Sequence record: OR757454.1
Length of the DNA stretch: 64,000 bases
Reading direction: 5' to 3' (one strand)
Source: Escherichia phage BYEP02
A program made the position numbers and the translations under genes. Shown piece after piece: positions 15,637 to 59,707 of this stretch; position 1 is the first letter of the stretch, and each line of letters opens with the position of its first letter. The notes below the pieces were generated by a model. It was not told the DNA's origin, did no database searches, and saw only the letters and a list, made by a program, of their open reading frames with translations.

Positions 15637-15930
15637 ATGGCCTTAAAAGCAACGGCACTATTTGCCATGCTAGGATTGTCATTTGTTTTATCTCCATCGA
15701 TTGAAGCGAATGTCGATCCTCATTTTGATAAATTTATGGAATCTGGTATTAGGCACGTTTATATGCTTTTTGAAAATAAAAGCGTAGAATCGTCTGAACA
15801 ATTCTATAGTTTTATGAGAACGACCTATAAAAATGACCCGTGCTCTTCTGATTTTGAATGCATAGAACGAGGCGCGGAGATGGCACAATCATACGCTAGA
15901 ATTATGAACATTAAATTGGAGACTGAATGA
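15637..15930 (+). CDS. rI: RI lysis-inhibition regulator (antiholin)
   Basis: Translation MALKATALFAMLGLSFVLSPSIEANVDPHFDKF... matches T4 RI; signal-anchor N-terminus. Confidence 0.9.
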   Translation: MALKATALFAMLGLSFVLSPSIEANVDPHFDKFMESGIRHVYMLFENKSVESSEQFYSFMRTTYKNDPCSSDFECIERGAEMAQSYARIMNIKLETE

Positions 15931-16390
15931 AATTCAGCGACTTTTCACAAAGTGGAAAACCTTCAAAGGCAGATGAATACTTAGGTTTATTAATGGCTGC
16001 ACAAGCTTATTTTCATTCTGCTCACAAAGTGGAAAACCTTCAAAGGCAGATGAATACTTAGGTTTATTAATGGCTGCACAAGCTTATTTTCATTCTGCAC
16101 ATTTTGAAACTAAAAGTTATGCTAGACACAAAGCATACGATTTTATTTTCTCCGAGTTGCCAGATTTGATTGATAAATTTGGTGAGCAATATTTGGGGTA
16201 TTCTGGTAGAAAATACACACCTTCAATTCCAGATGCTAGTAAACTTCCTACCGACACAATTAAAATGATTGATCGCATACTAGACCAATCTAACAGCATT
16301 TATAAAGAAATGCCTCCAGCCATCCAAAGCACGATAGATGATATTACTGGAATGTTTTACCAGAGTAAGTATCTTCTTTCCCTCGAATAA
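15927..16390 (+). CDS. hypothetical protein, frameshifted by a 77-bp duplication
   Basis: ATGA overlap with rI stop; 129 codons after removing 77 nt. Confidence 0.5.
15946..16099. repeat. 77-bp tandem duplication (15946-16022 / 16023-16099), 0-1 mismatch
   Basis: Read directly. Confidence 0.9.
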
Positions 16391-25975: not shown

Positions 25976-26977
25976 ATGACTCGTAACGAATATATCAAAT
26001 CATTCAATAGCGTTATTGATGATAAAGCTATACCGATGTTTGGTCAAAATATCGTTCTTTCTATTATCAATCAATGGCTCAATAGTGTTGATGCAAGTAT
26101 TGTTTCTTCTACTAAATTTATTCATGAAATTCGTAAAATTTCTAGTCGTGTAGATAAAGATGTTATCAAGAAAACCTTTAAAGAGTCTCGTCTTCTTTCA
26201 TATTTGGTTAATCGGGATATTCTTGGTAATTTTGGGAAAGAAATTAAACGAACTAAAGATGTAGTAGGATATAATTGGTTCGGTGATGTTAATTCTTATC
26301 ATCTTAATAATAAAGAAGACCCTGAGAATATTTTTACTCGTCGTTGGATTAGTAATTTCAGACTTTTCAAAGGACAGATTCTAAAATCAGCTTCTAAATT
26401 ATGTTATGGCGATTATCGTCAAATTCATCCTTTGGCTTCTGATATGATTATCGTAAAAGAATATGAACTTGATAAAAATAAAGTATCTATTTTTGTGAAT
26501 TATGGATTTTTTACACCAGAAACTAACCAAAAGAATATTAATAAATTTTTCTCAATTGCTAGCACTATAACTCGTCAATTAGAGACCGCATTACTTTGTA
26601 TGGAAACAGTAGAAAATATTCATACTTATCCTTTTAAGAATATATGCGGTTGGGAAGGATATAAAATTGTAATTAGTCTTCGTGAAGTGAAATGTGCTTA
26701 TTCACCTACTGATAAAGAAATTTACCAACAAAAATGTGATGAAATTGTGAATACTCCTAAAGAAGAAACTACCCTTGAGGAACTAATGGAATGTCTTGAC
26801 GATTCACCTGAACCGGTAGAAATTCGTCCAGAAGTTATTGCACTAGAAAAAGCTTATAAAGAAGTTCTAGAAATTTCTAATAAAGCGCAGAAAGAATATG
26901 AGAAGGCTAAAAGGATTTGGGAAGAATCTGTTAATCGCCTTGATCGTTTGGAACAAGCTTTACAGTTAATTAAGTAA
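25976..26977 (+). CDS. hypothetical protein C of tandem set (333 aa); C-terminal coiled coil
   Basis: ATG with GAGGAG RBS. Confidence 0.55.
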   Translation: MTRNEYIKSFNSVIDDKAIPMFGQNIVLSIINQWLNSVDASIVSSTKFIHEIRKISSRVDKDVIKKTFKESRLLSYLVNRDILGNFGKEIKRTKDVVGYNWFGDVNSYHLNNKEDPENIFTRRWISNFRLFKGQILKSASKLCYGDYRQIHPLASDMIIVKEYELDKNKVSIFVNYGFFTPETNQKNINKFFSIASTITRQLETALLCMETVENIHTYPFKNICGWEGYKIVISLREVKCAYSPTDKEIYQQKCDEIVNTPKEETTLEELMECLDDSPEPVEIRPEVIALEKAYKEVLEISNKAQKEYEKAKRIWEESVNRLDRLEQALQLIK

Positions 26978-27083
26978 TTTAAAGCCAAGGATGGCTCGGA
27001 GTATAAGTTAATCGTCTTGATCGTCTGGAACAAGCTTTACAGTTAATTAAGTAATTTAAAGCCAAGGATGGCTCGGAGTATAA
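26930..27083. repeat. 77-bp tandem duplication (26930-27006 / 27007-27083), 2 mismatches; gene 3' end and intergenic
   Basis: Read directly. Confidence 0.9.
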
Positions 27084-27106
27084 ATCATTAACCAAGTGAG
27101 AAGAAC

Positions 27107-28036
27107 ATGAAAACTCGTAAACATTATATTGATTATTTTGACAGTCTTATTACTAAACACCGTAATTATCAGATCGGACACAGAGCAGTAATCAATAATA
27201 TTCTTCGTGATTTCCTTCAATATGTTGGCCAGGAAAATCATATCTGTAAAGATACTCAAAACGCTTATTCTCATTCGTTGGGCAATTTGCTTCAATGGTT
27301 TAAACGTTCTCGTATGTTATCTTCTACTGTAGCTCGCGATAACATTAAAAACTTTATGAAGCCGAGCTTTATTAAATCTGAGACATCTATAACTGATTTG
27401 GTTGAATTTACTATTGTTAACGATGTTAAAAAGACCCATTTGGCTGATTGGTTATCTACCATTCCTGAAACTAAATTTGCTGATAAATTTGCTTGTCAAT
27501 TCAATGACCAAGTGAATATGCTTTTTAAGCATGCTCGCAAACTATTTACCGCGGGCGATGACCGTACAAATACAGTTCATGTTAAGGATTGGGTTATTGC
27601 TGATGAAGTAACACACAAGCCAGGTGGTTCATCAGTATTAATTAATATCCAGGTTCCTTATTATTACTCACGTAATCTCGGCACCATGAACTCTAGAGAA
27701 ATTAATAAGCACAACAAAACTATTCGTTCGTTATCTTATAAACTCCGCATGATGTTAAAAATCATGGACGTAGTAGAAATGTATGACGAAACCGAAGATA
27801 ATGGTTCAATGTTATACAGTTCACGCATTTTAATTAAACTGAAGAACCCTAATACATATAAGACAGTTGTAAAAGAGCCTAAAGTAGAAAAGATTGATAA
27901 CTTGAGCGAAGAACGTGAATACCTCAAATCTCGACTAGTTGAAGTTGAAGCTCAGATTGCCGAACACACTAAATTGTTAAAAGCTCTTAATGCAAAAGCA
28001 AATGGTTTACGTAATGCTATTGAGGTATTGAAATGA
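27107..28036 (+). CDS. hypothetical protein D of tandem set (309 aa); C-terminal coiled coil
   Basis: Begins MKTR like protein B. Confidence 0.55.
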   Translation: MKTRKHYIDYFDSLITKHRNYQIGHRAVINNILRDFLQYVGQENHICKDTQNAYSHSLGNLLQWFKRSRMLSSTVARDNIKNFMKPSFIKSETSITDLVEFTIVNDVKKTHLADWLSTIPETKFADKFACQFNDQVNMLFKHARKLFTAGDDRTNTVHVKDWVIADEVTHKPGGSSVLINIQVPYYYSRNLGTMNSREINKHNKTIRSLSYKLRMMLKIMDVVEMYDETEDNGSMLYSSRILIKLKNPNTYKTVVKEPKVEKIDNLSEEREYLKSRLVEVEAQIAEHTKLLKALNAKANGLRNAIEVLK

Positions 28037-28422
28037 AAAAGCGTCTATTAGAAGATATTGCAGCTTCAAGTAATTCCAGTCTAATTAAAATTATTATGGC
28101 TGGTGAAGAAGACGATCTGGAAATGCGCGGAAAGATTCATGGTTGTGATGATTTAGATTTTAAACCTCCAGCCTGGGATGCTATTATGGTTATGGTTAAA
28201 CGTCGCGAAAGGGCTTCTAAAAACGTTCCTAATTGTCCTGAATGCGGTACTGAACAAGTTCAATTGATTAACTGGCGTAAACCGGAACTTGAATATAAAT
28301 GCCGTCATTGCAAACATAAATTTAGTAAGCATGCTCCGGAAATGGTTAAATTACCTGACTCTACTGAGTTCTTTAAAGAACTTGCGAGTGTTCAACCAAT
28401 GCCTAATAATATTTTGGATTAA
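28033..28422 (+). CDS. zinc-ribbon protein (129 aa)
   Basis: CPECG...CRHCKH. Confidence 0.5.
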
Positions 28423-28424
28423 AA

Positions 28425-28667
28425 ATGACCAAGCGTAAAGAATATATGGAGACTGCTGAAAAGGCAGTCCGTGAATTAGCAATAGCTTATTATAATGAAC
28501 ACGGTAAATTTCCTGATAGATACAGCGTGCTTAAATCTGCTTTAACTCGTTCATATAAAAATATGCTATCAGAAGTAAGTGATATTATATACAAACATAA
28601 AGAACAAACGGGCCAAAGTCTTGATTACGACGAGACTTTTAAACAAGTACTAGGAATTAAGGAATAA
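28425..28667 (+). CDS. hypothetical protein (80 aa)
   Basis: ATG right after upstream stop. Confidence 0.5.
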
Positions 28668-28668
28668 T

Positions 28669-28932
28669 ATGTTTAAAGTATATGGTTATGATAGCAACAT
28701 CCACAAATGTGTGTATTGCGATAATGCAAAACGTCTTTTGACAGTGAAGAAACAACCGTTTGAATTTATCAACATTATGCCGGAAAAAGGTGTTTTTGAT
28801 GATGAGAAAATCGCTGAGCTTCTGACTAAACTAGGTCGTGATACTCAAATCGGCTTGACAATGCCCCAGGTATTTGCTCCTGATGGAAGTTATATTGGTG
28901 GATTTGACAAATTGCGGGAATACTTTAAATGA
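28669..28932 (+). CDS. nrdC: thioredoxin/glutaredoxin-like NrdC
   Basis: Translation MFKVYGYDSNIHKCVYCDNAKRLL... with CVYC active site matches T4 NrdC. Confidence 0.9.
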   Translation: MFKVYGYDSNIHKCVYCDNAKRLLTVKKQPFEFINIMPEKGVFDDEKIAELLTKLGRDTQIGLTMPQVFAPDGSYIGGFDKLREYFK

Positions 28933-29144
28933 TTCTCGAAGGAACTGATTATATCCATGACTACCGCGGAAGCGCGGTATATGTAGGTGATGAGGTTGCA
29001 GTTTATTACGGGTATGGAACTTTGATGACAGCCAAAGTTATTCAAATTAAAAATAACCGTGCTAAACTCGAAGTTTATTATTCTAACGGTGAAAAGTCTA
29101 TTTCTAAATGGAAATATGGCGATTGTATGGTCAAACTGGGGTAA
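28929..29144 (+). CDS. hypothetical protein (71 aa)
   Basis: ATGA overlap with nrdC stop. Confidence 0.45.
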   Translation: MILEGTDYIHDYRGSAVYVGDEVAVYYGYGTLMTAKVIQIKNNRAKLEVYYSNGEKSISKWKYGDCMVKLG

Positions 29145-29146
29145 AT

Positions 29147-29317
29147 ATGATTTACGATATTAGTGTATCAAGAACTCCGTCAATGGTTACTATTCCAGCC
29201 GAAGAACTAGATCGTCTTCAGAAAATTGAAGAACTTCTTTGGGAAATTGAATCTGATTTGCCATCAGGACTAGAATCCTGGATTGATTATGAAGAACTTA
29301 ATAAGCTTCGGGGTTAA
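29147..29317 (+). CDS. hypothetical acidic protein (56 aa)
   Basis: ATG 3 nt after upstream stop. Confidence 0.4.
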   Translation: MIYDISVSRTPSMVTIPAEELDRLQKIEELLWEIESDLPSGLESWIDYEELNKLRG

Positions 29318-29395
29318 AGGAAATTGAATCTGATTTGCCATCAGGACTAGAATCCTGGATTGATTATGAAGAACTTAATAAGCTTCGGGGTTAAA
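29242..29395. repeat. 77-bp tandem duplication (29242-29318 / 29319-29395), identical
   Basis: Read directly. Confidence 0.9.
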
Positions 29396-29516
29396 CCTTG
29401 GTGGGCGGTTAGATGGGAAACTGTAGAGCCAGAGCCGGAAGAACCGGTTTACACTGATGAAGAAACAGTATATAATGAACCAACGATAAATGACTTAATT
29501 GATATGGAGATGGGAC

Positions 29517-30002
29517 ATGATTACAGTAGATAAGTGGTTTAGAATTAATCGTGCTGATACAGGGCTGTGTAATTACTGGCCGGAACTTAGTGCAGGTACT
29601 GTCTTTAAAGTTCGTGAACTTGCAAAAGAATGTGAAGATGATATAGAGCCTGATACTGGAATTATTGAAATTGAACTTTCCGACGGAAAGATTATTAACA
29701 TCTATGATAAGCCAATTACGTATTGGTGCTTGTGGAATACTGAATCAGTAGAAAATGGCGAAATTGAAGAAGTTGTAGAGCGAACTAATCAAGTTGTTCA
29801 GAAGCCTAAAGCCGATTTTCAAGGTGAACGTATTTCATACGCATTAGCTAAATTAGCTGCACAAGAAAATAACGATGGTTATGAAGGAAATTTGATGCAA
29901 GCTGCGGCAGAATATATTGAATGGCTTGAAACTCAAATTTCTTTTTCTGACCAAAAGATTCGGCAATATAAGCGATTGAATCAAATGTTTTACAATACTT
30001 GA
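29517..30002 (+). CDS. pin: Pin-like protein (protease inhibitor), by position between nrdC and 49
   Basis: 161 aa ORF in the T4 pin position; identity not confirmed by motif. Confidence 0.55.
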   Translation: MITVDKWFRINRADTGLCNYWPELSAGTVFKVRELAKECEDDIEPDTGIIEIELSDGKIINIYDKPITYWCLWNTESVENGEIEEVVERTNQVVQKPKADFQGERISYALAKLAAQENNDGYEGNLMQAAAEYIEWLETQISFSDQKIRQYKRLNQMFYNT

Positions 30003-37224: not shown

Positions 37225-38427
37225 ATGAAAGTATGTATTTTTATGGCTCGAGGTCTTGAAGGTTGTGGTGTAACTAAATTTTCTCTTGAGCAACGTGATT
37301 GGTTTATTAAGAATGGTCATGAAGTAACTTTGGTTTATGCTAAAGATAAATCATTTACTCGTACAAGTTCTCATGACCACAAATCATTTTCAATTCCAGT
37401 TATTTTAGCTAAAGAATACGATAAAGCACTTAAGCTGGTAAATGATTGTGATATTCTAATTATTAATTCTGTTCCTGCTACTTCCGTTCAAGAAGCCACG
37501 ATTAATAACTATAAAAAACTTTTAGATAATATTAAACCTTCTATTCGTGTTGTAGTTTATCAGCATGATCATTCTGTTCTTTCTTTGCGTCGAAATTTGG
37601 GATTAGAAGAAACTGTTCGTCGAGCTGATGTTATTTTTAGCCATTCTGATAATGGTGACTTTAATAAAGTTTTGATGAAAGAATGGTATCCGGAAACTGT
37701 TTCTCTGTTTGATGATATTGAAGAAGCACCGACCGTATATAACTTTCAGCCTCCTATGGATATTGCGAAAGTTCGATCAACCTACTGGAAAGATGTTTCT
37801 GAAATTAACATGAATATCAATCGTTGGATTGGTCGTACGACTACATGGAAAGGTTTTTACCAGATGTTTGATTTTCACGAAAAATTCTTAAAACCTGCTG
37901 GTAAATCCACTGTAATGGAAGGTCTTGAACGTTCCCCTGCTTTTATTGCAATTAAGGAAAAAGGTATTCCGTATGAATATTACGGTAATCGTGAGATCGA
38001 TAAAATGAATCTCACGCCGAATCAACCGGCACAAATCCTAGATTGTTATATTAATAGTGAAATGCTTGAACGAATGAGTAAATCTGGCTTTGGATATCAG
38101 TTGAGTAAACTTAACCAGAAATACTTACAACGCTCACTAGAATATACTCATCTTGAATTAGGTGCTTGCGGTACAATTCCTGTTTTCTGGAAATCTACTG
38201 GCGAAAATTTAAAATTCCGTGTTGATAATACTCCTTTGACCTCGCATGATAGCGGTATCATTTGGTTTGATGAAAATGACATGGAATCAACATTCGAGCG
38301 TATTAAAGAACTGTCATCTGACCGAGCTCTTTATGACCGTGAGCGAGAAAAAGCATATGAATTTTTGTATCAGCATCAAGATTCAAGCTTCTGCTTTAAA
38401 GAACAGTTTGACATTATTACAAAATAA
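37225..38427 (+). CDS. a-gt: DNA alpha-glucosyltransferase
   Basis: 400 aa; translation MKVCIFMARGLEGCGVTKFSLEQRDWF... matches T4 alpha-gt. Confidence 0.9.
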   Translation: MKVCIFMARGLEGCGVTKFSLEQRDWFIKNGHEVTLVYAKDKSFTRTSSHDHKSFSIPVILAKEYDKALKLVNDCDILIINSVPATSVQEATINNYKKLLDNIKPSIRVVVYQHDHSVLSLRRNLGLEETVRRADVIFSHSDNGDFNKVLMKEWYPETVSLFDDIEEAPTVYNFQPPMDIAKVRSTYWKDVSEINMNINRWIGRTTTWKGFYQMFDFHEKFLKPAGKSTVMEGLERSPAFIAIKEKGIPYEYYGNREIDKMNLTPNQPAQILDCYINSEMLERMSKSGFGYQLSKLNQKYLQRSLEYTHLELGACGTIPVFWKSTGENLKFRVDNTPLTSHDSGIIWFDENDMESTFERIKELSSDRALYDREREKAYEFLYQHQDSSFCFKEQFDIITK

Positions 38428-45466: not shown

Positions 45467-48240
45467 ATGAAAGAATTTTATATCTCTATTGAAACAGTCG
45501 GAAATAATATTGTTGAACGTTATATTGATGAAAATGGAAAGGAACGTACTCGTGAAGTAGAATATCTTCCGACTATGTTTAGGCATTGTAAGGAAGAGTC
45601 AAAATACAAAGACATTTATGGTAAAAATTGCGCTCCTCAAAAATTTCCATCAATGAAAGATGCACGAGACTGGATGAAGCGAATGGAAGACATCGGTCTC
45701 GAAGCTCTTGGTATGAACGATTTTAAACTCGCTTATATCAGTGATACATATGGTTCAGAAATTGTTTATGACCGAAAATTTGTTCGTGTAGCTAACTGTG
45801 ACATTGAGGTTACTGGCGATAAATTTCCTGACCCAATGAAAGCAGAATATGAAATTGATGCTATCACTCATTATGATTCAATTGATGATCGTTTTTACGT
45901 CTTTGATTTGTTGAATTCAATGTACGGTTCAGTATCAAAATGGGATGCAAAGTTAGCTGCTAAGCTTGACTGTGAAGGTGGCGATGAAGTTCCTCAAGAA
46001 ATTCTTCAGTATCAAAATGGGATGCAAAGTTAGCTGCTAAGCTTGACTGTGAAGGTGGTGATGAAGTTCCTCAAGAAATTCTTGACCGAGTAATTTATAT
46101 GCCATTCGATAATGAGCGTGATATGCTCATGGAATATATCAATCTTTGGGAACAGAAACGACCTGCTATTTTTACTGGTTGGAATATTGAGGGATTTGAC
46201 GTTCCGTATATCATGAATCGCGTTAAAATGGTTCTCGGTGAACGTAGTATGAAACGCTTCTCTCCAATCGGTCGGGTAAAATCTAAACTAATTCAAAATA
46301 TGTACGGTAGCAAAGAAATTTATTCTATTGATGGCGTATCTATTCTTGATTATTTAGATTTGTACAAGAAATTTGCTTTTACTAATTTGCCGTCATTCTC
46401 TTTGGAATCAGTTGCTCAACATGAAACCAAAAAAGGTAAATTACCATACGACGGTCCTATTAATAAACTCCGTGAGACTAATCATCAACGATACATTAGT
46501 TATAACATCATTGACGTAGAATCAGTTCAAGCAATTGATAAAATTCGCGGGTTTATCGATCTAGTTTTAAGTATGTCTTATTATGCTAAAATGCCTTTTT
46601 CTGGTGTAATGAGTCCTATTAAAACTTGGGATGCTATTATTTTTAACTCATTGAAAGGTGAACACAAGGTTATTCCTCAGCAAGGTTCGCATGTTAAACA
46701 GAGTTTTCCGGGTGCATTTGTATTTGAACCTAAACCAATTGCTCGTCGATATATTATGAGTTTTGACTTGACGTCTCTGTATCCGAGCATTATTCGTCAG
46801 GTTAACATTAGTCCTGAGACTATTCGTGGTCAGTTTAAAGTTCATCCAATTCATGAATATATCGCAGGAACAGCTCCTAAACCGAGTGATGAATATTCTT
46901 GTTCTCCGAATGGATGGATGTACGATAAGCATCAAGAAGGTATCATTCCAAAGGAAATCGCTAAAGTATTTTTCCAGCGTAAAGATTGGAAAAAGAAAAT
47001 GTTCGCTGAAGAAATGAATGCCGAAGCTATTAAAAAGATTATTATGAAAGGCGCAGGGTCTTGTTCAACTAAACCTGAAGTTGAACGATATGTTAAGTTC
47101 AGTGATGATTTCTTAAATGAACTATCGAATTATACTGAATCTGTTCTCAATAGTTTGATTGAAGAATGTGAAAAAGCGGCTACACTTGCTAACACAAATC
47201 AGCTGAACCGTAAAATTCTTATTAACAGCCTTTACGGTGCTCTTGGTAATATTCATTTCCGTTACTATGATTTGCGAAATGCTACTGCTATCACAATTTT
47301 CGGTCAAGTCGGTATTCAGTGGATTGCTCGTAAAATTAATGAATATCTAAATAAAGTATGTGGAACTGATGGTGAAGATTTCATTGCCGCGGGTGATACT
47401 GATTCGGTATATGTTTGTGTAGATAAAGTAATTGAAAAAGTAGGTCTTGACCGCTTTAAAGAACAAAATGATTTAGTTGAATTCATGAATCAGTTTGGTA
47501 AGAAAAAGATGGAACCTATGATTGATGTTGCATATCGTGAGTTATGTGATTATATGAATAATCGCGAGCATCTGATGCATATGGACCGTGAAGCTATTTC
47601 TTGCCCTCCACTTGGTTCAAAGGGCGTTGGTGGATTTTGGAAAGCGAAAAAGCGTTATGCTCTGAACGTTTATGATATGGAAGATAAACGATTTGCTGAA
47701 CCGCATCTAAAAATCATGGGTATGGAAACTCAACAGAGTTCAACACCAAAAGCAGTGCAAGAAGCTCTCGAAGAAAGTATTCGTCGTATTCTTCAGGAAG
47801 GTGAAGAGTCTGTCCAAGAATACTACAAGAACTTCGAGAAAGAATATCGTCAACTTGACTATAAAGTTATTGCTGAAGTAAAAACTGCGAACGATATAGC
47901 AAAATATGATGATAAAGGTTGGCCAGGATTTAAATGTCCGTTCCATATTCGCGGTGTGCTAACTTATCGTCGAGCTGTTAGTGGTCTGGGTGTAGCTCCA
48001 ATTTTGGATGGAAATAAAGTAATGGTTCTTCCATTGCGTGAAGGAAATCCATTTGGTGACAAGTGCATTGCTTGGCCGTCGGGCACAGAACTTCCAAAAG
48101 AAATTCGTTCTGATGTACTATCTTGGATTGACTACTCAACTTTGTTCCAAAAATCGTTTGTTAAACCGCTTGCGGGCATGTGTGAATCGGCTGGTATGGA
48201 CTATGAAGAAAAAGCTTCGTTAGACTTCCTGTTTGGCTGA
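45467..48240 (+). CDS. 43: DNA polymerase gp43 (family B), frameshifted by a 77-bp duplication
   Basis: 898 aa after removing 77 nt; exo and polymerase motifs present (e.g. YGDTDS-like GDTDS). Confidence 0.95.
45930..46083. repeat. 77-bp tandem duplication (45930-46006 / 46007-46083), 1 mismatch, inside gene 43
   Basis: Read directly. Confidence 0.9.
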
Positions 48241-48668: not shown

Positions 48669-49049
48669 ATGAAAATCGCTATTTTGGTTATTGCATTAGG
48701 TCTTACTGGTTGTGTAGCTCAAGGACCGGTAGTAAATCAGTCTGATGCAGGAAAAATTGTAAACTGTTCAAGCAAATTTTATAATCCTAATGTCAAGTGT
48801 TATAAAGAAGCTCCAAAGCAAACAGTCGAACAAATGCAGGCGAATTTTGACGAAGCTATTCGTCCAGATGAATCTGCTCAAGCATATCGTAATTCTGATG
48901 TAATTACACGCGAAGAAAAAATTGAAAACTACTGCGCCGAAATTTGGGCTAATTGGGCTAATAATTACCAATGGCGTACTGGTAAAAATGCTCCGATGGA
49001 GTATGTAGTGAATTCTTATAATTCATGCGTAAAAAATTTGACTAAGTGA
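48669..49049 (+). CDS. lipoprotein (126 aa)
   Basis: Lipobox LGLTGC after signal peptide. Confidence 0.55.
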   Translation: MKIAILVIALGLTGCVAQGPVVNQSDAGKIVNCSSKFYNPNVKCYKEAPKQTVEQMQANFDEAIRPDESAQAYRNSDVITREEKIENYCAEIWANWANNYQWRTGKNAPMEYVVNSYNSCVKNLTK

Positions 49050-49056
49050 GGAAAAC

Positions 49057-49308
49057 ATGGAAACTTTAGTAGCAGGTTCAATTTTTATGGTTTTAGTATC
49101 AGGCGTGTTGGCTATTATTATATACATGCTTCCATGGTTTATCGCCTTGATGCGTGGGTCAAAATCGACAGTAGGAATCTTTTTCACATCTTTACTGTTT
49201 AACTGGTCAATTATTGGTTGGTTTATTACATTTATTTGGTCAATTGTAGGTGAAACTAAAAAGTCTGCGCAGCCAAATCAGGTAATTATCATCAGAGAGA
49301 AGGAATGA
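49057..49308 (+). CDS. imm: Imm superinfection-immunity membrane protein
   Basis: 83 aa, two TM helices; between 43 and 42 as in T4. Confidence 0.8.
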   Translation: METLVAGSIFMVLVSGVLAIIIYMLPWFIALMRGSKSTVGIFFTSLLFNWSIIGWFITFIWSIVGETKKSAQPNQVIIIREKE

Positions 49309-49454
49309 AAAGCAAAATTATAGCAGTGTTGCTTTTAATCTTGATGGTTATAATAAGTATATACTATAGTGTAACGGTTCCTCTTATGATTCCAACTATT
49401 ATTTTAGGTTGGAGTTTATTACTGTTACAAATTAAATATGAATGCATCAATTGA
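49305..49454 (+). CDS. possible small membrane protein (49 aa)
   Basis: ATGA overlap with imm stop; hydrophobic; not in supplied ORF track. Confidence 0.35.
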   Translation: MKSKIIAVLLLILMVIISIYYSVTVPLMIPTIILGWSLLLLQIKYECIN

Positions 49455-49461
49455 GGTTTAA

Positions 49462-50279
49462 ATGATTAACGATTATATGACAGTTGAAGAAATCCGTCTT
49501 GATTTGGGTCTTGCATTAAAGGAAAAAGATTTCGTAATTGATAAAACCGGGGTTAAAACTATTGAAATTATTGGTGCATCATTTGTAGCAGATGAACCTT
49601 TTATTTTTGGCGCTCTTAATGATGAATACATTCAGCGTGAACTTGAATGGTATAAATCTAAGAGCTTGTTCGTTAAAGATATTCCAGGTGAAACACCGAA
49701 GATTTGGCAGCAGGTAGCATCTTCTAAAGGCGAAATTAACTCGAATTATGGTTGGGCTATCTGGTCAGAAGATAACTATGCTCAGTATGATATGTGTTTA
49801 GCTGAACTTGGTCAAAATCCTGATTCTCGACGTGGTATCATGATTTATACTCGTCCATCCATGCAATTTGACTACAATAAAGATGGTATGTCAGATTTCA
49901 TGTGCACGAATACAGTACAGTACCTGATTCGTGATAAGAAAGTCAATGCAGTGGTTAACATGAGAAGCAATGATTGCTGGGCAGGCTATCGTAATGATTA
50001 TGCATGGCAAAAATACGTATTAGATAAATTAGTATCTGATTTGAATGCAGGCGACCCATCGCGGCAATATAAAGCAGGTTCTATTATATGGAACGTTGGA
50101 AGTCTTTAGTATCTGATTTGAATGCAGGCGATTCAACTCGTCAGTATAAAGCAGGTTCTATTATATGGAATGTTGGAAGTCTTCATGTATATTCTCGTCA
50201 TTTTTACTTGGTTGATCATTGGTGGAATACTGGCGAAACTCATATTGTGAAAAAAGATTATAACGGTGAGTGGAAATGA
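49462..50279 (+). CDS. 42: dCMP hydroxymethylase gp42, frameshifted by a 77-bp duplication
   Basis: 246 aa after removing 77 nt; thymidylate-synthase-like fold sequence. Confidence 0.9.
50031..50184. repeat. 77-bp tandem duplication (50031-50107 / 50108-50184), about 7 clustered differences (GDPSRQY vs GDSTRQY)
   Basis: Read directly. Confidence 0.9.
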
Positions 50280-51118
50280 TTCAATTCGTAATTCCAAGCT
50301 ATCAACGCGTAGGGGCAGTTTCTGCCCTTGATATGTTTCCGACTGATTATGAACCACATATTGTAGTGCGTGAACACGAAGAAAAAGCTTATTATGATGC
50401 TTATGGGTCTAGAGCTAAAATTGTAACTATTCCTGATGATGTTAATGGAATTGCCGGTACTCGTAAAGCAATTACTGATATGTATGCAGGTCAACGAATC
50501 TGGATGATTGATGATGATACTACTATTCGTATGAGTTCAATACGAAAGAGAGACGATAAACGGCGCGTAGATAAAATTAATCAATTAACTCGTGAACAGT
50601 TCTATGAATTAATTCAATACGTTGAGGATGCTATGGATTGCGGGTATTATCACGGTCATGCTCGTCTACCAATTTTTAAAATTACTTCATCTTGGGGTAA
50701 TTATCGTGAAAACTCATATGGATTCACGAATACATGGTATGACCTCGGAAAACTTACGACAGAACAAATTGGGTATGGAAAAATTGATTTATGTGAAGAT
50801 ATGTACGCATTTCTCAATTTAATTAATCAAGGTTATCCGCATTTGGCCTTGTTCAAATATCTAGTTGTATCTGGAAAATCACACGCTCCCGGCGGGTGCA
50901 GTTCAATTCGTAGTAATTCTAAACATAATAGAGCGCTTGAACAAATCAATAGAGAGTTTCCAGAGCAAGCTCGTTGGAAAACTTCTAATATTGAAAAACG
51001 AAAATCGTTGGGTGAAGAAGACGAGCCATTAAAGGTTCTTCGCATGTGTGTTTCTCGTAAAGAAAAATCAGAAGCATTTCATAAGTTTAATGCTATTCAT
51101 CCAATAGCAGTTGATTAA
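50276..51118 (+). CDS. putative glycosyltransferase in the beta-gt position but unlike T4 beta-gt (possibly T2/T6-type beta-glucosyl-HMC alpha-glucosyltransferase)
   Basis: 280 aa ORF between 42 and uvsX; family assignment by position and size only. Confidence 0.5.
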   Translation: MIQFVIPSYQRVGAVSALDMFPTDYEPHIVVREHEEKAYYDAYGSRAKIVTIPDDVNGIAGTRKAITDMYAGQRIWMIDDDTTIRMSSIRKRDDKRRVDKINQLTREQFYELIQYVEDAMDCGYYHGHARLPIFKITSSWGNYRENSYGFTNTWYDLGKLTTEQIGYGKIDLCEDMYAFLNLINQGYPHLALFKYLVVSGKSHAPGGCSSIRSNSKHNRALEQINREFPEQARWKTSNIEKRKSLGEEDEPLKVLRMCVSRKEKSEAFHKFNAIHPIAVD

Positions 51119-51195
51119 TGCCTAAATTTATTGTGTTATAATTACTCTATCTTTAACCAGTGAGGAAAATATAATGATGCCTATGGAAAAAATGA

Positions 51196-52377
51196 ATGTC
51201 TATTGCAGATTTAAAATCCCGTTTGATTAAAGCTTCCACTTCTAAAATGACTGCTGAACTGACTACATCTAAATTCTTTAATGAAAAGGATGTAATTCGT
51301 ACAAAAATTCCAATGCTTAATATTGCTATTTCTGGTGCGATTGATGGTGGTATGCAGTCTGGTTTAACTATTTTCGCAGGGCCTTCTAAACACTTTAAAT
51401 CAAATATGTCTTTGACTATGGTTGCGGCGTATTTGAACAAATATCCTGACGCGGTTTGTCTATTCTATGATAGCGAATTTGGTATTACTCCAGCTTATTT
51501 GCGATCCATGGGAGTTGACCCGGAACGAGTAATTCATACGCCGATTCAGTCAGTTGAACAACTGAAAATTGATATGGTGAACCAGCTTGAAGCTATTGAG
51601 CGTGGTGAAAAGGTTATTGTATTCATCGACTCAATCGGTAATATGGCTTCTAAGAAAGAAACGGAAGATGCCTTGAATGAAAAATCTGTGGCAGATATGA
51701 CTCGTGCTAAATCACTGAAGTCATTATTCCGTATTGTTACTCCTTATTTTAGCATTAAAAATATTCCGTGCGTTGCGGTTAACCATACAATTGAAACAAT
51801 TGAAATGTTTAGTAAAACCGTGATGACAGGTGGTACAGGCGTAATGTATTCGGCTGATACTGTATTCATTATCGGTAAGCGTCAGATTAAAGATGGTTCT
51901 GATCTTCAGGGGTATCAATTTGTTCTAAATGTAGAAAAATCTCGTACCGTTAAAGAAAAAAGTAAATTCTTTATTGATGTTAAATTTGACGGTGGTATCG
52001 ATCCTTATTCTGGATTGTTAGATATGGCTCTAGAATTAGGATTCGTGGTAAAACCTAAAAATGGCTGGTATGCTCGTGAATTTCTTGATGAAGAAACCGG
52101 CGAGATGATTCGCGAAGAAAAATCTTGGCGTGCAAAAGATACCAACTGCACTACATTCTGGGGTCCTTTATTTAAGCATCAACCATTCCGAGATGCTATT
52201 AAACGCGCTTATCAGTTAGGTGCTATTGATAGTAATGAAATTGTTGAAGCTGAAGTTGATGAATTGATTAACTCAAAGGTTGAAAAATTTAAATCTCCAG
52301 AAAGTAAAAGTAAATCAGCAGCTGATTTAGAAACTGACCTAGATCAGTTAAGTGATATGGAAGAATTTAATGAATAA
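51196..52377 (+). CDS. uvsX: UvsX recombinase (RecA-like)
   Basis: Walker A GPSKHFKS; translation matches T4 UvsX along its length. Confidence 0.95.
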   Translation: MSIADLKSRLIKASTSKMTAELTTSKFFNEKDVIRTKIPMLNIAISGAIDGGMQSGLTIFAGPSKHFKSNMSLTMVAAYLNKYPDAVCLFYDSEFGITPAYLRSMGVDPERVIHTPIQSVEQLKIDMVNQLEAIERGEKVIVFIDSIGNMASKKETEDALNEKSVADMTRAKSLKSLFRIVTPYFSIKNIPCVAVNHTIETIEMFSKTVMTGGTGVMYSADTVFIIGKRQIKDGSDLQGYQFVLNVEKSRTVKEKSKFFIDVKFDGGIDPYSGLLDMALELGFVVKPKNGWYAREFLDEETGEMIREEKSWRAKDTNCTTFWGPLFKHQPFRDAIKRAYQLGAIDSNEIVEAEVDELINSKVEKFKSPESKSKSAADLETDLDQLSDMEEFNE

Positions 52378-52714
52378 AGATGATTTAGATTTAGATCTAG
52401 AAATTATCGACGAATCCCCCTCTTCGGAGGGGGAAGAAGAAAGAAAAGAACGTCTTTTTAATGAATCTCTTAAGATAATTAAATCTGCCATGGAAAATGT
52501 TATCCAGGAGATTGTCATTAAACTAGAAGATGGTTCTACACACATTGTGTATGTGACAAAATTAGATTGGGTTGATGGAAAAGTCGTAATGGACTTTGCT
52601 GTTCTTGACCAAGAAAGAAAAGCTGAGTTAGCTCCTCATGTAGAAAAATGTATTACAATGCAACTACAAGATGCATTTAACAAAAGGTCAAAGAAAAAAT
52701 TTAAATTCTTTTAA
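52370..52714 (+). CDS. 40: gp40 head-vertex assembly chaperone
   Basis: 114 aa acidic protein between uvsX and 41. Confidence 0.75.
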   Translation: MNKDDLDLDLEIIDESPSSEGEEERKERLFNESLKIIKSAMENVIQEIVIKLEDGSTHIVYVTKLDWVDGKVVMDFAVLDQERKAELAPHVEKCITMQLQDAFNKRSKKKFKFF

Positions 52715-52723
52715 GGAGTAAGT

Positions 52724-54228
52724 GTGGTAGAAATTATTCTTTCTCATCTCATATTTGATCAAGCTTATTTTTCAAAAGTTTGGCCATATATGGATTCAGA
52801 ATATTTTGAAAGTGGTCCAGCTAAAAATACATTCAAATTAATTAAATCTCATGTTAATGAGTACCATAGCGTTCCATCCATTAATGCGTTAAATGTTGCA
52901 TTAGAAAATAGTTCATTTACTGAAACAGAATATTCTGGTGTAAAAACACTTATTTCAAAACTAACCGATTCTCCGGAAGACCACAGCTGGTTAGTAAAAG
53001 AAACAGAAAAATATGTTCAGCAAAGGGCGATGTTTAATGCTACGTCTAAAATAATTGAAATTCAAACCAATGCTGAGCTTCCTCCAGAAAAACGAAATAA
53101 GAAAATGCCAGATGTAGGTGCTATTCCTGACATCATGCGCCAAGCATTGTCAATTTCATTTGATAGCTACGTCGGTCATGATTGGATGGATGACTACGAA
53201 GCACGTTGGCTATCTTATATGAATAAAGCTCGTAAGGTTCCATTTAAACTCAAAATTCTAAATAAAATTACTAAAGGCGGAGCTGAAACTGGAACACTGA
53301 ACGTTTTAATGGCTGGTGTTAACGTTGGTAAGTCATTAGGATTGTGTTCATTGGCAGCAGATTATTTGCAGCTCGGACACAATGTTCTTTACATTTCCAT
53401 GGAAATGGCAGAAGAAGTCTGTGCTAAGCGTATTGACGCTAATATGCTCGATGTTTCTCTTGATGACATTGATGATGGGCATATTTCTTACGCTGAATAT
53501 AAAGGAAAAATGGAAAAATGGCGTGAGAAATCTACTCTTGGACGTTTAATCGTTAAACAGTATCCTACTGGTGGAGCAGACGCTAATACATTTCGATCGC
53601 TTTTAAACGAATTAAAGCTCAAGAAGAATTTTGTTCCAACAATCATTATTGTTGACTATCTAGGTATTTGTAAATCTTGTCGCATCAGAGTTTATTCAGA
53701 AAATAGTTACACAACTGTTAAAGCTATCGCAGAGGAATTGCGTGCTCTGGCTGTTGAAACCGAAACTGTTCTTTGGACCGCAGCACAAGTTGGTAAGCAA
53801 GCTTGGGATTCTTCTGATGTTAACATGAGCGATATTGCAGAATCTGCCGGTCTTCCGCAGCACAGGTTGGTAAACAAGCTTGGGATTCTTCTGATGTTAA
53901 CATGAGCGATATTGCAGAATCTGCCGGTCTTCCAGCAACAGCCGATTTTATGCTTGCGGTCATTGAAACCGAGGAGTTAGCAGCTGCTGAACAACAACTC
54001 ATTAAGCAAATCAAATCACGATATGGTGATAAGAATAAATGGAATAAGTTTTTGATGGGTGTTCAAAAAGGAAATCAAAAATGGGTAGAAATTGAGCAAG
54101 ATTCTACTCCAACTGAAGTTAACGAAGTAGCAGGTTCACAGCAGATTCAGGCTGAGCAGAATCGCTATCAAAGAAACGAATCTACTCGAGCCCAGTTAGA
54201 TGCTTTGGCAAATGAATTAAAATTTTAG
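52724..54228 (+). CDS. 41: replicative helicase gp41 (DnaB-like), frameshifted by a 77-bp duplication
   Basis: Walker A GVNVGKS; 475 aa after removing 77 nt; GTG start. Confidence 0.9.
53780..53933. repeat. 77-bp tandem duplication (53780-53856 / 53857-53933), 2 mismatches, inside gene 41
   Basis: Read directly. Confidence 0.9.
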
Positions 54229-57711: not shown

Positions 57712-59134
<1,423 letters not shown>

Positions 59135-59188: not shown

Positions 59189-59707
59189 ATGGCTCACTTT
59201 AATGAATGTGCTCATTTGATCGAAGGTGTTGATAAAGCAAATCGTGCATATGCTGAGTATATTATGCACAGTATTGACCCATTGCAGGTTATGCTTGACA
59301 TGCAGCGGCATTTACAGATTCGTTTGGCTAATGATAAGCCAGAAACAAATCGTCATCCTGATTCACTTGAAACTGCAGGAGAAGTTCTTGCTTGGTTGCG
59401 AAACCAAGACGATTATATCGCAGATGAAACTCGCGAGCTATATACTTCTCTTGGTGGTATGAGTAATGGTGAAAAAGAAGCTTCTGCTGTATGGAAACCT
59501 TGGAAGAAACGTTATTCTGAAATGCAATCCAAGAAAATTCAAGATTTATCTCCCGAAGATCAGCTTGAAATTAAATTTGAACTGATTGATCAATTTCACT
59601 TTTTCATGAATAAATTTATTGCTCTTGGAATGTCGGCTGAAGAAATCTTTAAACTTTATTATCTGAAAAATGCTGAAAACTTCGCTCGTCAAGACCGAGG
59701 TTATTGA
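59189..59707 (+). CDS. 56: dCTPase/dUTPase gp56 (MazG-like pyrophosphatase)
   Basis: ~172 aa; MAHFNECAHLIEGVDKA... and position between dam and soc as in T4. Confidence 0.8.
   Translation: MAHFNECAHLIEGVDKANRAYAEYIMHSIDPLQVMLDMQRHLQIRLANDKPETNRHPDSLETAGEVLAWLRNQDDYIADETRELYTSLGGMSNGEKEASAVWKPWKKRYSEMQSKKIQDLSPEDQLEIKFELIDQFHFFMNKFIALGMSAEEIFKLYYLKNAENFARQDRGY

What the first reader, a model, noticed from the sequence alone, without database searches (positions are those of the whole stretch)
50276..51118. Non-T4 glycosyltransferase candidate in the beta-gt position
T4 has beta-glucosyltransferase (~351 aa) between 42 and uvsX. Here there is a different ~280 aa ORF. T2 and T6 are known to replace beta-gt with a beta-glucosyl-HMC alpha-glucosyltransferase of about this size. 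If so, the DNA would be modified T2/T6-style, which changes sensitivity to modification-dependent restriction.
Basis: partly seen in the sequence, partly recalled or inferred. Interest (0 to 1): 0.45.

Follow-up and report, generated by a model that had tools for sequence, protein, structure and literature searches.

The report
T2/T6-type second DNA glucosyltransferase gene
This is the ordinary, well-known gene that T2/T6-like phages carry in place of T4's beta-glucosyltransferase; its enzyme adds a second glucose to already glucosylated phage DNA, and an identical protein is found in a phage whose DNA has been measured to carry that double sugar.

Summary
An intact 280-codon ORF lies at 50276-51118 (+). 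Its ATG overlaps the stop of gene 42 (dCMP hydroxymethylase), and uvsX follows it.

It is not T4 beta-gt: there is no sequence similarity, and the fold is GT-A, not GT-B. It is the T2/T6 "beta-glucosyl-HMC-alpha-glucosyltransferase" (ba-gt, ggt, Pfam PF20691 TAGT).
- It is 96.8% identical to the T2 protein and 96.1% to the T6 protein.
- It is 100% identical to the proteins of phages slur03 and vB_Eco_EL.
- It has about 470 near-identical copies in phage records.

The enzyme that supplies its substrate, alpha-gt, is in the window at 37225-38427 and is also 100% identical to EL's. No beta-gt is present.

Published HPLC/MS of EL DNA gives hmC : alpha-glucosyl-hmC : alpha-gentiobiosyl-hmC of about 1:2:2. 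A published T6 ba-gt deletion gives DNA that behaves as alpha-glucosyl-hmC only. The catalytic motifs are intact (D79-D81, E174-D175) and the AlphaFold model is confident (pLDDT 95).

It is already known and of low interest.

Side note: the window carries about 30 retained 77-bp junction duplications, an assembly artefact that breaks genes 43, 42 and 41 but not this ORF.

The parts
50276..51118 (+). ba-gt / ggt / TAGT: beta-glucosyl-HMC-alpha-glucosyltransferase, 280 aa, GT-A fold. DxD motif at D79-D80-D81, ED motif at E174-D175.
37225..38427 (+). a-gt: DNA alpha-glucosyltransferase, 400 aa. It makes alpha-glucosyl-hmC, the acceptor for the ba-gt enzyme.
   Evidence: Pfam PF11440 at E=5.6e-259. 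99% identical to T4 a-gt and 99.5% to T6. 400/400 identical to EL_067.
49462..50279 (+). Gene 42, dCMP hydroxymethylase, which supplies hm-dCMP. Here it is read as two ORFs (49462-50109 and 50088-50279) because of a retained 77-bp junction duplication.
50029..50182 (.). Inexact tandem 77-bp duplication (7 mismatches) at a junction between assembly segments. It is an artefact, lies upstream of the ORF and does not touch it.
59189..59707 (+). Gene 56, dCTPase/dCTP pyrophosphatase, which keeps unmodified C out of phage DNA. The start coordinate is approximate, mapped from EL_032.
   Evidence: Collinear with EL 15837-16355, annotated dCTP pyrophosphatase. Weak Pfam dUTPase_2 match, below the cut-off.

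Best explanation
The ORF encodes the T2/T6-type second DNA glucosyltransferase (ba-GT, ggt, a TAGT-family GT-A enzyme). The pathway runs as follows. Gene 42 makes hm-dCMP, and hmC is incorporated into the DNA during replication. The window's alpha-GT then puts an alpha-linked glucose on hmC in the DNA. This enzyme then transfers a second glucose from UDP-glucose onto that glucose in beta-1,6 linkage, giving gentiobiosyl-hmC. The beta product from UDP-alpha-glucose implies an inverting mechanism. That fits a GT2-like GT-A enzyme in which a metal-binding DxD motif (D79-D81) holds the UDP-sugar and an acidic residue (D175 of the ED motif) acts as catalytic base. Because both transferases are identical in protein sequence to those of phage vB_Eco_EL, the DNA is expected to carry roughly 1 part hmC, 2 parts alpha-glucosyl-hmC and 2 parts alpha-gentiobiosyl-hmC, with no beta-glucosyl-hmC. 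What is shown here: orthology, synteny, fold, conserved motifs and presence of the partner enzyme. What is taken from the literature: the chemistry of EL DNA and the phenotype of the T6 ba-gt deletion. What is inferred: the catalytic roles of individual residues, and that this phage's DNA matches EL's.
For: - Family matches: PHROG 842 'beta-glucosyl-HMC-alpha-glucosyltransferase' at E=4e-88; Pfam PF20691 TAGT at 39.1 bits against a 27.5-bit cut-off.
- Identity: 96.8% to T2, 96.1% to T6 and 100% to slur03; 280/280 identical to EL_047.
- Position: same place and same ATGA overlap with gene 42 as in T2, T6, slur03 and EL.
- Partner enzyme: a-gt is present in the window and 400/400 identical to EL's. 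No b-gt is in the window.
- Conserved residues in an 83-sequence family alignment: D80, D175, G186 and G207 invariant; D79, D81, R11, R63, G206 and R212 near-invariant. All are present in this protein.
- Literature: EL, BGP and Geo DNA measured by HPLC/MS as hmC: a-glc-hmC: a-gentiobiosyl-hmC about 1:2:2, with no beta-glucosyl form (PMC13390438). A T6 ba-gt deletion gives DNA that Brig1 degrades, unlike wild-type T6 DNA, and the authors take it to carry only alpha-glucosyl-hmC (PMC11078745). A published analysis of an AF3 model places T6 TAGT in the GT-A superfamily next to GT2 (PMC13216743).
Against: - No enzyme assay or DNA analysis exists for this particular phage.
- No solved structure of any family member was found by sequence, so the residue roles are inferred from GT2 enzymes.
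- The window is a chain of assembly segments with retained, sometimes mismatched, 77-bp overlaps. a-gt and this gene therefore lie on different segments, and their presence in one genome is likely but not proven by this sequence.
- The level of gentiobiosylation varies widely among phages with about 97% identical enzymes: T2 about 5%, EL about 40%, T6 and TB37 about 67-72%. The quantitative pattern therefore depends on details that sequence alone does not settle.
Confidence: 0.93

Rival explanations
1. The gene is the ba-gt orthologue but contributes little in this phage, as in T2. The DNA would then be almost entirely mono-alpha-glucosylated, with only a few per cent gentiobiosyl-hmC.
For: T2 carries a 96.8% identical gene, yet only about 5% of its hmC is gentiobiosylated. 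The level therefore varies strongly among close alleles.
Against: The window protein is identical to EL's, and EL DNA has about 40% gentiobiosyl-hmC. The a-gt proteins are also identical. The window protein keeps Arg11, which is present in 82 of 82 aligned family members, whereas both T2 records have His there.
Confidence: 0.07
2. The enzyme uses a different donor or acceptor from the T2/T6 enzyme. For example, it could glycosylate hmC directly, as solitary TAGT homologues in other phages may do, or it could add a sugar other than glucose.
For: TAGT is a broad family. 288 of 753 phage genomes carry a TAGT homologue without a-GT or b-GT, and TAGT also occurs together with b-GT (PMC13216743). 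Specificity therefore differs within the family.
Against: The protein is 96-100% identical to enzymes from phages whose DNA contains only hmC, alpha-glucosyl-hmC and alpha-gentiobiosyl-hmC. The T6 deletion genetics fit a second-step role.
Confidence: 0.03
3. The locus is a chimera of co-assembled strains, so the a-gt plus ba-gt combination seen in the window does not exist in one genome.
For: About 30 junctions carry 77-bp duplications, and about 20 of them have 1-8 mismatches. Identity to EL varies between segments from 96.0% to 99.8%.
Against: The order of all segments is collinear with slur03 and EL. All four phages of this group examined here (T2, T6, EL, slur03) carry this gene, and the three whose a-gt region was examined (T2, T6, EL) also carry a-gt in the same position. 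Mixing such strains would not change the gene content.
Confidence: 0.05

Closest known systems
T2/T6 beta-glucosyl-HMC-alpha-glucosyltransferase (ba-gt / ggt; PHROG 842; Pfam PF20691 TAGT). Examples: T2 BBF63203/AYD82639, T6 BBF63468, slur03 YP_009625204, vB_Eco_EL CAL1327286.
   Same: Same length (280 aa). 96-100% identical. Same position between gene 42 and uvsX, with the same ATGA overlap. Same partner a-gt. Same conserved motifs.
   Different: Nothing of substance. It is the EL/slur03/PST allele. That allele differs from the T6-like TB37 allele at 7 residues (V50, I89, K95, R97, I101, S202, H203) and from T2 at 9 residues, including residue 11 (Arg here, His in T2).
T4 beta-glucosyltransferase (b-gt, GT63, PF09198, PDB 1JG7)
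   Same: Occupies the same genomic slot downstream of gene 42. It also uses UDP-glucose to make a beta-linkage on modified phage DNA.
   Different: No sequence similarity. 351 aa with a GT-B fold, against 280 aa with a GT-A fold. It glucosylates hmC directly rather than adding to alpha-glucosyl-hmC.
Cellular GT2-family inverting GT-A glycosyltransferases (e.g. SpsA 1H7L, TarS 5TZE, AvpGT 9JMA, BcsA 4P00)
   Different: Only 8-16% sequence identity. The acceptor here is a sugar on duplex DNA rather than a lipid, polysaccharide or teichoic acid.

Membership tests
T2/T6 ba-GT (ggt; PHROG 842 / Pfam PF20691 TAGT) | Full-length sequence homology to the T2 and T6 gene products | tested here: met
   271/280 identical to T2 and 269/280 to T6. 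PHROG 842 at E=4e-88. PF20691 at 39.1 bits, above the 27.5-bit cut-off.
T2/T6 ba-GT (ggt; PHROG 842 / Pfam PF20691 TAGT) | Location immediately downstream of gene 42 and upstream of uvsX, in place of b-gt | tested here: met
T2/T6 ba-GT (ggt; PHROG 842 / Pfam PF20691 TAGT) | GT-A fold with an intact DxD motif and the family's invariant residues | tested here: met
T2/T6 ba-GT (ggt; PHROG 842 / Pfam PF20691 TAGT) | Co-occurrence with an alpha-glucosyltransferase that makes the acceptor, and absence of b-gt | tested here: met
   a-gt at 37225-38427 (PF11440, E=5.6e-259). No tblastn hit for T4 b-gt in the window. Caveat: the window is a segmented assembly.
T2/T6 ba-GT (ggt; PHROG 842 / Pfam PF20691 TAGT) | Catalytic activity: UDP-glucose plus alpha-glucosyl-hmC DNA gives beta-1,6-glucosyl-alpha-glucosyl-hmC (gentiobiosyl-hmC) | not testable with these tools
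   Indirect only. An identical protein occurs in phage EL, whose DNA contains alpha-gentiobiosyl-hmC. There is also the published T6 ba-gt deletion phenotype.
T4 beta-glucosyltransferase (GT63, PF09198) | Sequence similarity to T4 b-gt / Pfam PF09198 | tested here: not met
   Best blastp E=8.7. The only Pfam hit is PF20691.
T4 beta-glucosyltransferase (GT63, PF09198) | GT-B two-domain fold | tested here: not met

The most novel reading that the evidence does not exclude
Allelic variation in this gene may set how much of the DNA is doubly glucosylated across Tequatrovirus phages. The EL/slur03-type allele found here has 7 substitutions relative to the T6-like TB37 allele, two of them next to the conserved APGGC motif. 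It would be a partly efficient enzyme giving a mixed mono/di-glucosyl genome (about 1:2:2). T2's His at the otherwise invariant Arg11 would be a hypomorph, explaining its roughly 5% gentiobiosyl-hmC. A mixed pattern could be a hedge between defences aimed at alpha-glucosyl-hmC (Brig1, BapA/Brig3) and those aimed at other forms.
Probability: 0.2. Interest if true: 0.3.

Novelty: already known. Interest (0 to 1): 0.08.

Why it matters
It tells an annotator that this phage belongs to the T2/T6 modification type (hmC, alpha-glucosyl-hmC and gentiobiosyl-hmC, no beta-glucosyl-hmC).

According to published work, that type affects which defences act on the phage:
- Gentiobiosyl-hmC DNA resists the Brig1 glycosylase and the BapA glucosidase in vitro.
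- Such DNA remains a target of GmrSD/BrxU-type enzymes.
- The roughly 20-25% of bare hmC is a target for hmC-specific defences.

This is useful for predicting host range and for choosing restriction enzymes. It adds no new biology, because an identical protein is already deposited for many phages (51 records at 99% identity or more) and has been linked to measured DNA chemistry.

Tried and rejected
- T4 b-gt homology: rejected. There is no blastp or tblastn similarity.
- NCBIfam: no model matches either transferase, which is uninformative.
- Promoter and terminator scan of 48900-51400: the counts equal those of the shuffled controls, so nothing can be said about transcription signals.
- Broken or pseudogenised gene: I checked this because neighbouring genes 42, 43 and 41 appear split. 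The splits are all 77-bp junction duplications of the assembly, and this ORF lies wholly inside one segment (50106-53856) and is intact.
- Arabinosyl-type modification (RB69/Bas46-like): set aside. The window has the T4-type gene 42 and a-gt, and phage EL, which has identical enzymes, showed no arabinose.
- Two paper searches failed on term syntax, as did two in-paper term look-ups.

Full report
**Observation.** The ORF listing shows a single long + strand ORF at 50270-51118, and the ATG at 50276 gives 280 aa. This ATG overlaps the TGA of the upstream gene-42 frame in an ATGA arrangement. uvsX begins 77 bases after the stop codon, at 51196. The gene order is 43, imm.1, imm, 42, this ORF, uvsX, 40, 41. 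This is the T-even order read on the opposite strand from the T4 record. In T4 the corresponding slot holds b-gt (351 aa), followed by segA.

**Identity.**
- The protein matches PHROG 842, 'beta-glucosyl-HMC-alpha-glucosyltransferase', at E=4e-88 over its whole length.
- It matches Pfam PF20691 (TET-associated glycosyltransferase, TAGT) at 39.1 bits, above the 27.5-bit gathering score.
- Megablast of 49400-52400 finds 757 phage records. The best are slur03, slur08, slur14 and Lutter at 98.9%, followed by the Durham phages EL, BGP and Geo at 98.2-98.6%.
- At protein level it is 280/280 identical to slur03 and to vB_Eco_EL, 271/280 to T2 and 269/280 to T6.
- tblastn finds it in 688 phage records. 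470 of them are at 95% identity or more, and a second group at about 64% occurs in Klebsiella and Enterobacter T4-like phages, again next to gene 42.
- It has no detectable similarity to T4 b-gt or a-gt (best E values 8.7 and 1.7).
- T4 b-gt has no tblastn hit anywhere in the 64 kb at E<=10.

**Partner enzyme and pathway.** The window holds a-gt at 37225-38427 (PF11440, E=5.6e-259). It is 99% identical to T4 a-gt, 99.5% to T6 and 400/400 to EL. Gene 42 and the dCTPase gene 56 are also present. All components of the T2/T6-type pathway are therefore in the window.

**Mechanism.** The known product is a beta-1,6 linkage made from UDP-alpha-glucose, which requires inversion at the anomeric carbon. 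That fits a GT2-like enzyme. By analogy with GT2 enzymes, I infer that D79-D81 is the metal and UDP-binding DxD motif and D175 (of E174-D175) is the catalytic base. This assignment of residue roles is inference, not a demonstrated result.

**Functional evidence from the literature.**
- PMC13390438 measured nucleosides of the Durham phages by HPLC/MS. EL, BGP and Geo contain 5-hmdC, alpha-5-glucosylmethyl-dC and alpha-5-gentiobiosylmethyl-dC at about 1:2:2, with no beta-glucosyl form. The authors attribute the disaccharide to the TAGT gene syntenic with T4 b-gt.
- Both the TAGT and a-GT proteins of EL are identical to those in the window. The same pattern is therefore the best prediction for this phage.
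- PMC11078745 deleted ba-gt in T6. Unlike wild-type T6 DNA, the mutant's DNA is degraded by Brig1, the phage is more sensitive to Brig1, and the authors take the DNA to carry only alpha-glucosyl-hmC.
- A 2026 preprint shows that BapA cannot remove glucose from gentiobiosyl-hmC but can do so from DNA of the T6 deletion mutant.
- PMC13216743 reports that a-GT plus TAGT is the commonest arrangement, while only 6 of 753 genomes carry T4's a-GT plus b-GT pair.

**Verdict on the finding.** Both the observation and the interpretation are right. The gene is already annotated under this name in RefSeq for many phages and is linked to measured chemistry, so it is already known and of low interest.

**Caveat about the sequence.** Compared with slur03 and EL, the window contains extra 77-bp tandem duplications at about 30 positions. 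Ten are exact and about twenty carry 1-8 mismatches. They look like k=77 assembly-graph overlaps that were not trimmed when segments were joined. The mismatched ones, together with identity to EL that varies by segment from 96.0% to 99.8%, suggest segments from slightly different variants. These duplications break:
- gene 43, at 45929;
- gene 42, at 50029-50182;
- gene 41, at 53779.

The ORF under study lies wholly inside one segment (50106-53856) and is unaffected. Linkage of a-gt and ba-gt on one molecule is very likely from collinearity with the related phages, but this assembly does not strictly prove it.

**Side observations on reference phages.**
- Both T2 records have His at residue 11, where all 82 aligned relatives with a residue at that position have Arg. 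T2 is the phage with only about 5% gentiobiosyl-hmC.
- The two T6 records disagree with each other. MH550421 has a TAG at codon 10. AP018814 has a 3-bp deletion within the GATGATGAT repeat that encodes D79-D81.
- The window/EL allele differs from the allele of TB37, a phage with T6-like DNA, at seven residues.

These points suggest, but do not show, that allelic differences in this gene tune the degree of double glucosylation.

Noticed in passing
window, first base of copy 1: 629, 1597, 4104, 6701, 7595, 8459, 10012, 11245, 13428, 15945, 18163, 19663, 22148, 26930, 29242, 30464, 31782, 33217, 36895, 40130, 42311, 42545, 43693, 45928, 50029, 53779, 54290, 56275, 58981, 61851: About 30 tandem 77-bp duplications, 10 exact and about 20 with 1-8 mismatches. 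They are absent from slur03 and EL at every junction where these were compared. They look like untrimmed k=77 assembly overlaps joining segments of slightly different variants. They frameshift genes 43 (45929), 42 (50029) and 41 (53779), among others.
   Followed up: partly
L002 7283-8125 (T2 AP018813) and L009 2286-3128 (T2 MH751506): Both T2 records have His at residue 11 of the ba-gt protein. Arg is found there in 82 of 82 aligned family members and in the window, T6, TB37 and EL. This could explain why T2 has only about 5% gentiobiosyl-hmC.
   Followed up: partly
L008 101-943 (T6 MH550421) and L003 7135-7974 (T6 AP018814): The two T6 genome records differ within this gene. MH550421 has TAG at codon 10, and its CDS is annotated from Met20. 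AP018814 has CAG there but lacks one GAT of the GATGATGAT repeat that encodes the DxD motif.
   Followed up: no
window 57712-58272 and 58272-59051: A Dam-type N6-adenine methyltransferase (PF02086, E=6.5e-51) is preceded by a 186-aa protein of unknown function (PHROG 8706, no Pfam hit). By position this small protein appears to be the 'restriction enzyme-like gene' that PMC13390438 says is exclusive to EL, BGP and Geo among the Durham phages.
   Followed up: partly
window 51119-51195, compared with T4 (L004 1571-2236): There is no segA homing endonuclease between the glucosyltransferase slot and uvsX. T4 has segA there; here only a 77-base spacer separates the two genes.
   Followed up: no
L006 (vB_Eco_EL) 26922-29735: EL's DNA polymerase CDS is annotated as 2814 bp, against 2697 bp in T4, T2 and slur03. 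The window-to-EL alignment shows about 100 bases of the window (about 45911-46106) aligning to several adjacent places in EL (29079-29274), which suggests a short internal duplication in the EL record.
   Followed up: no
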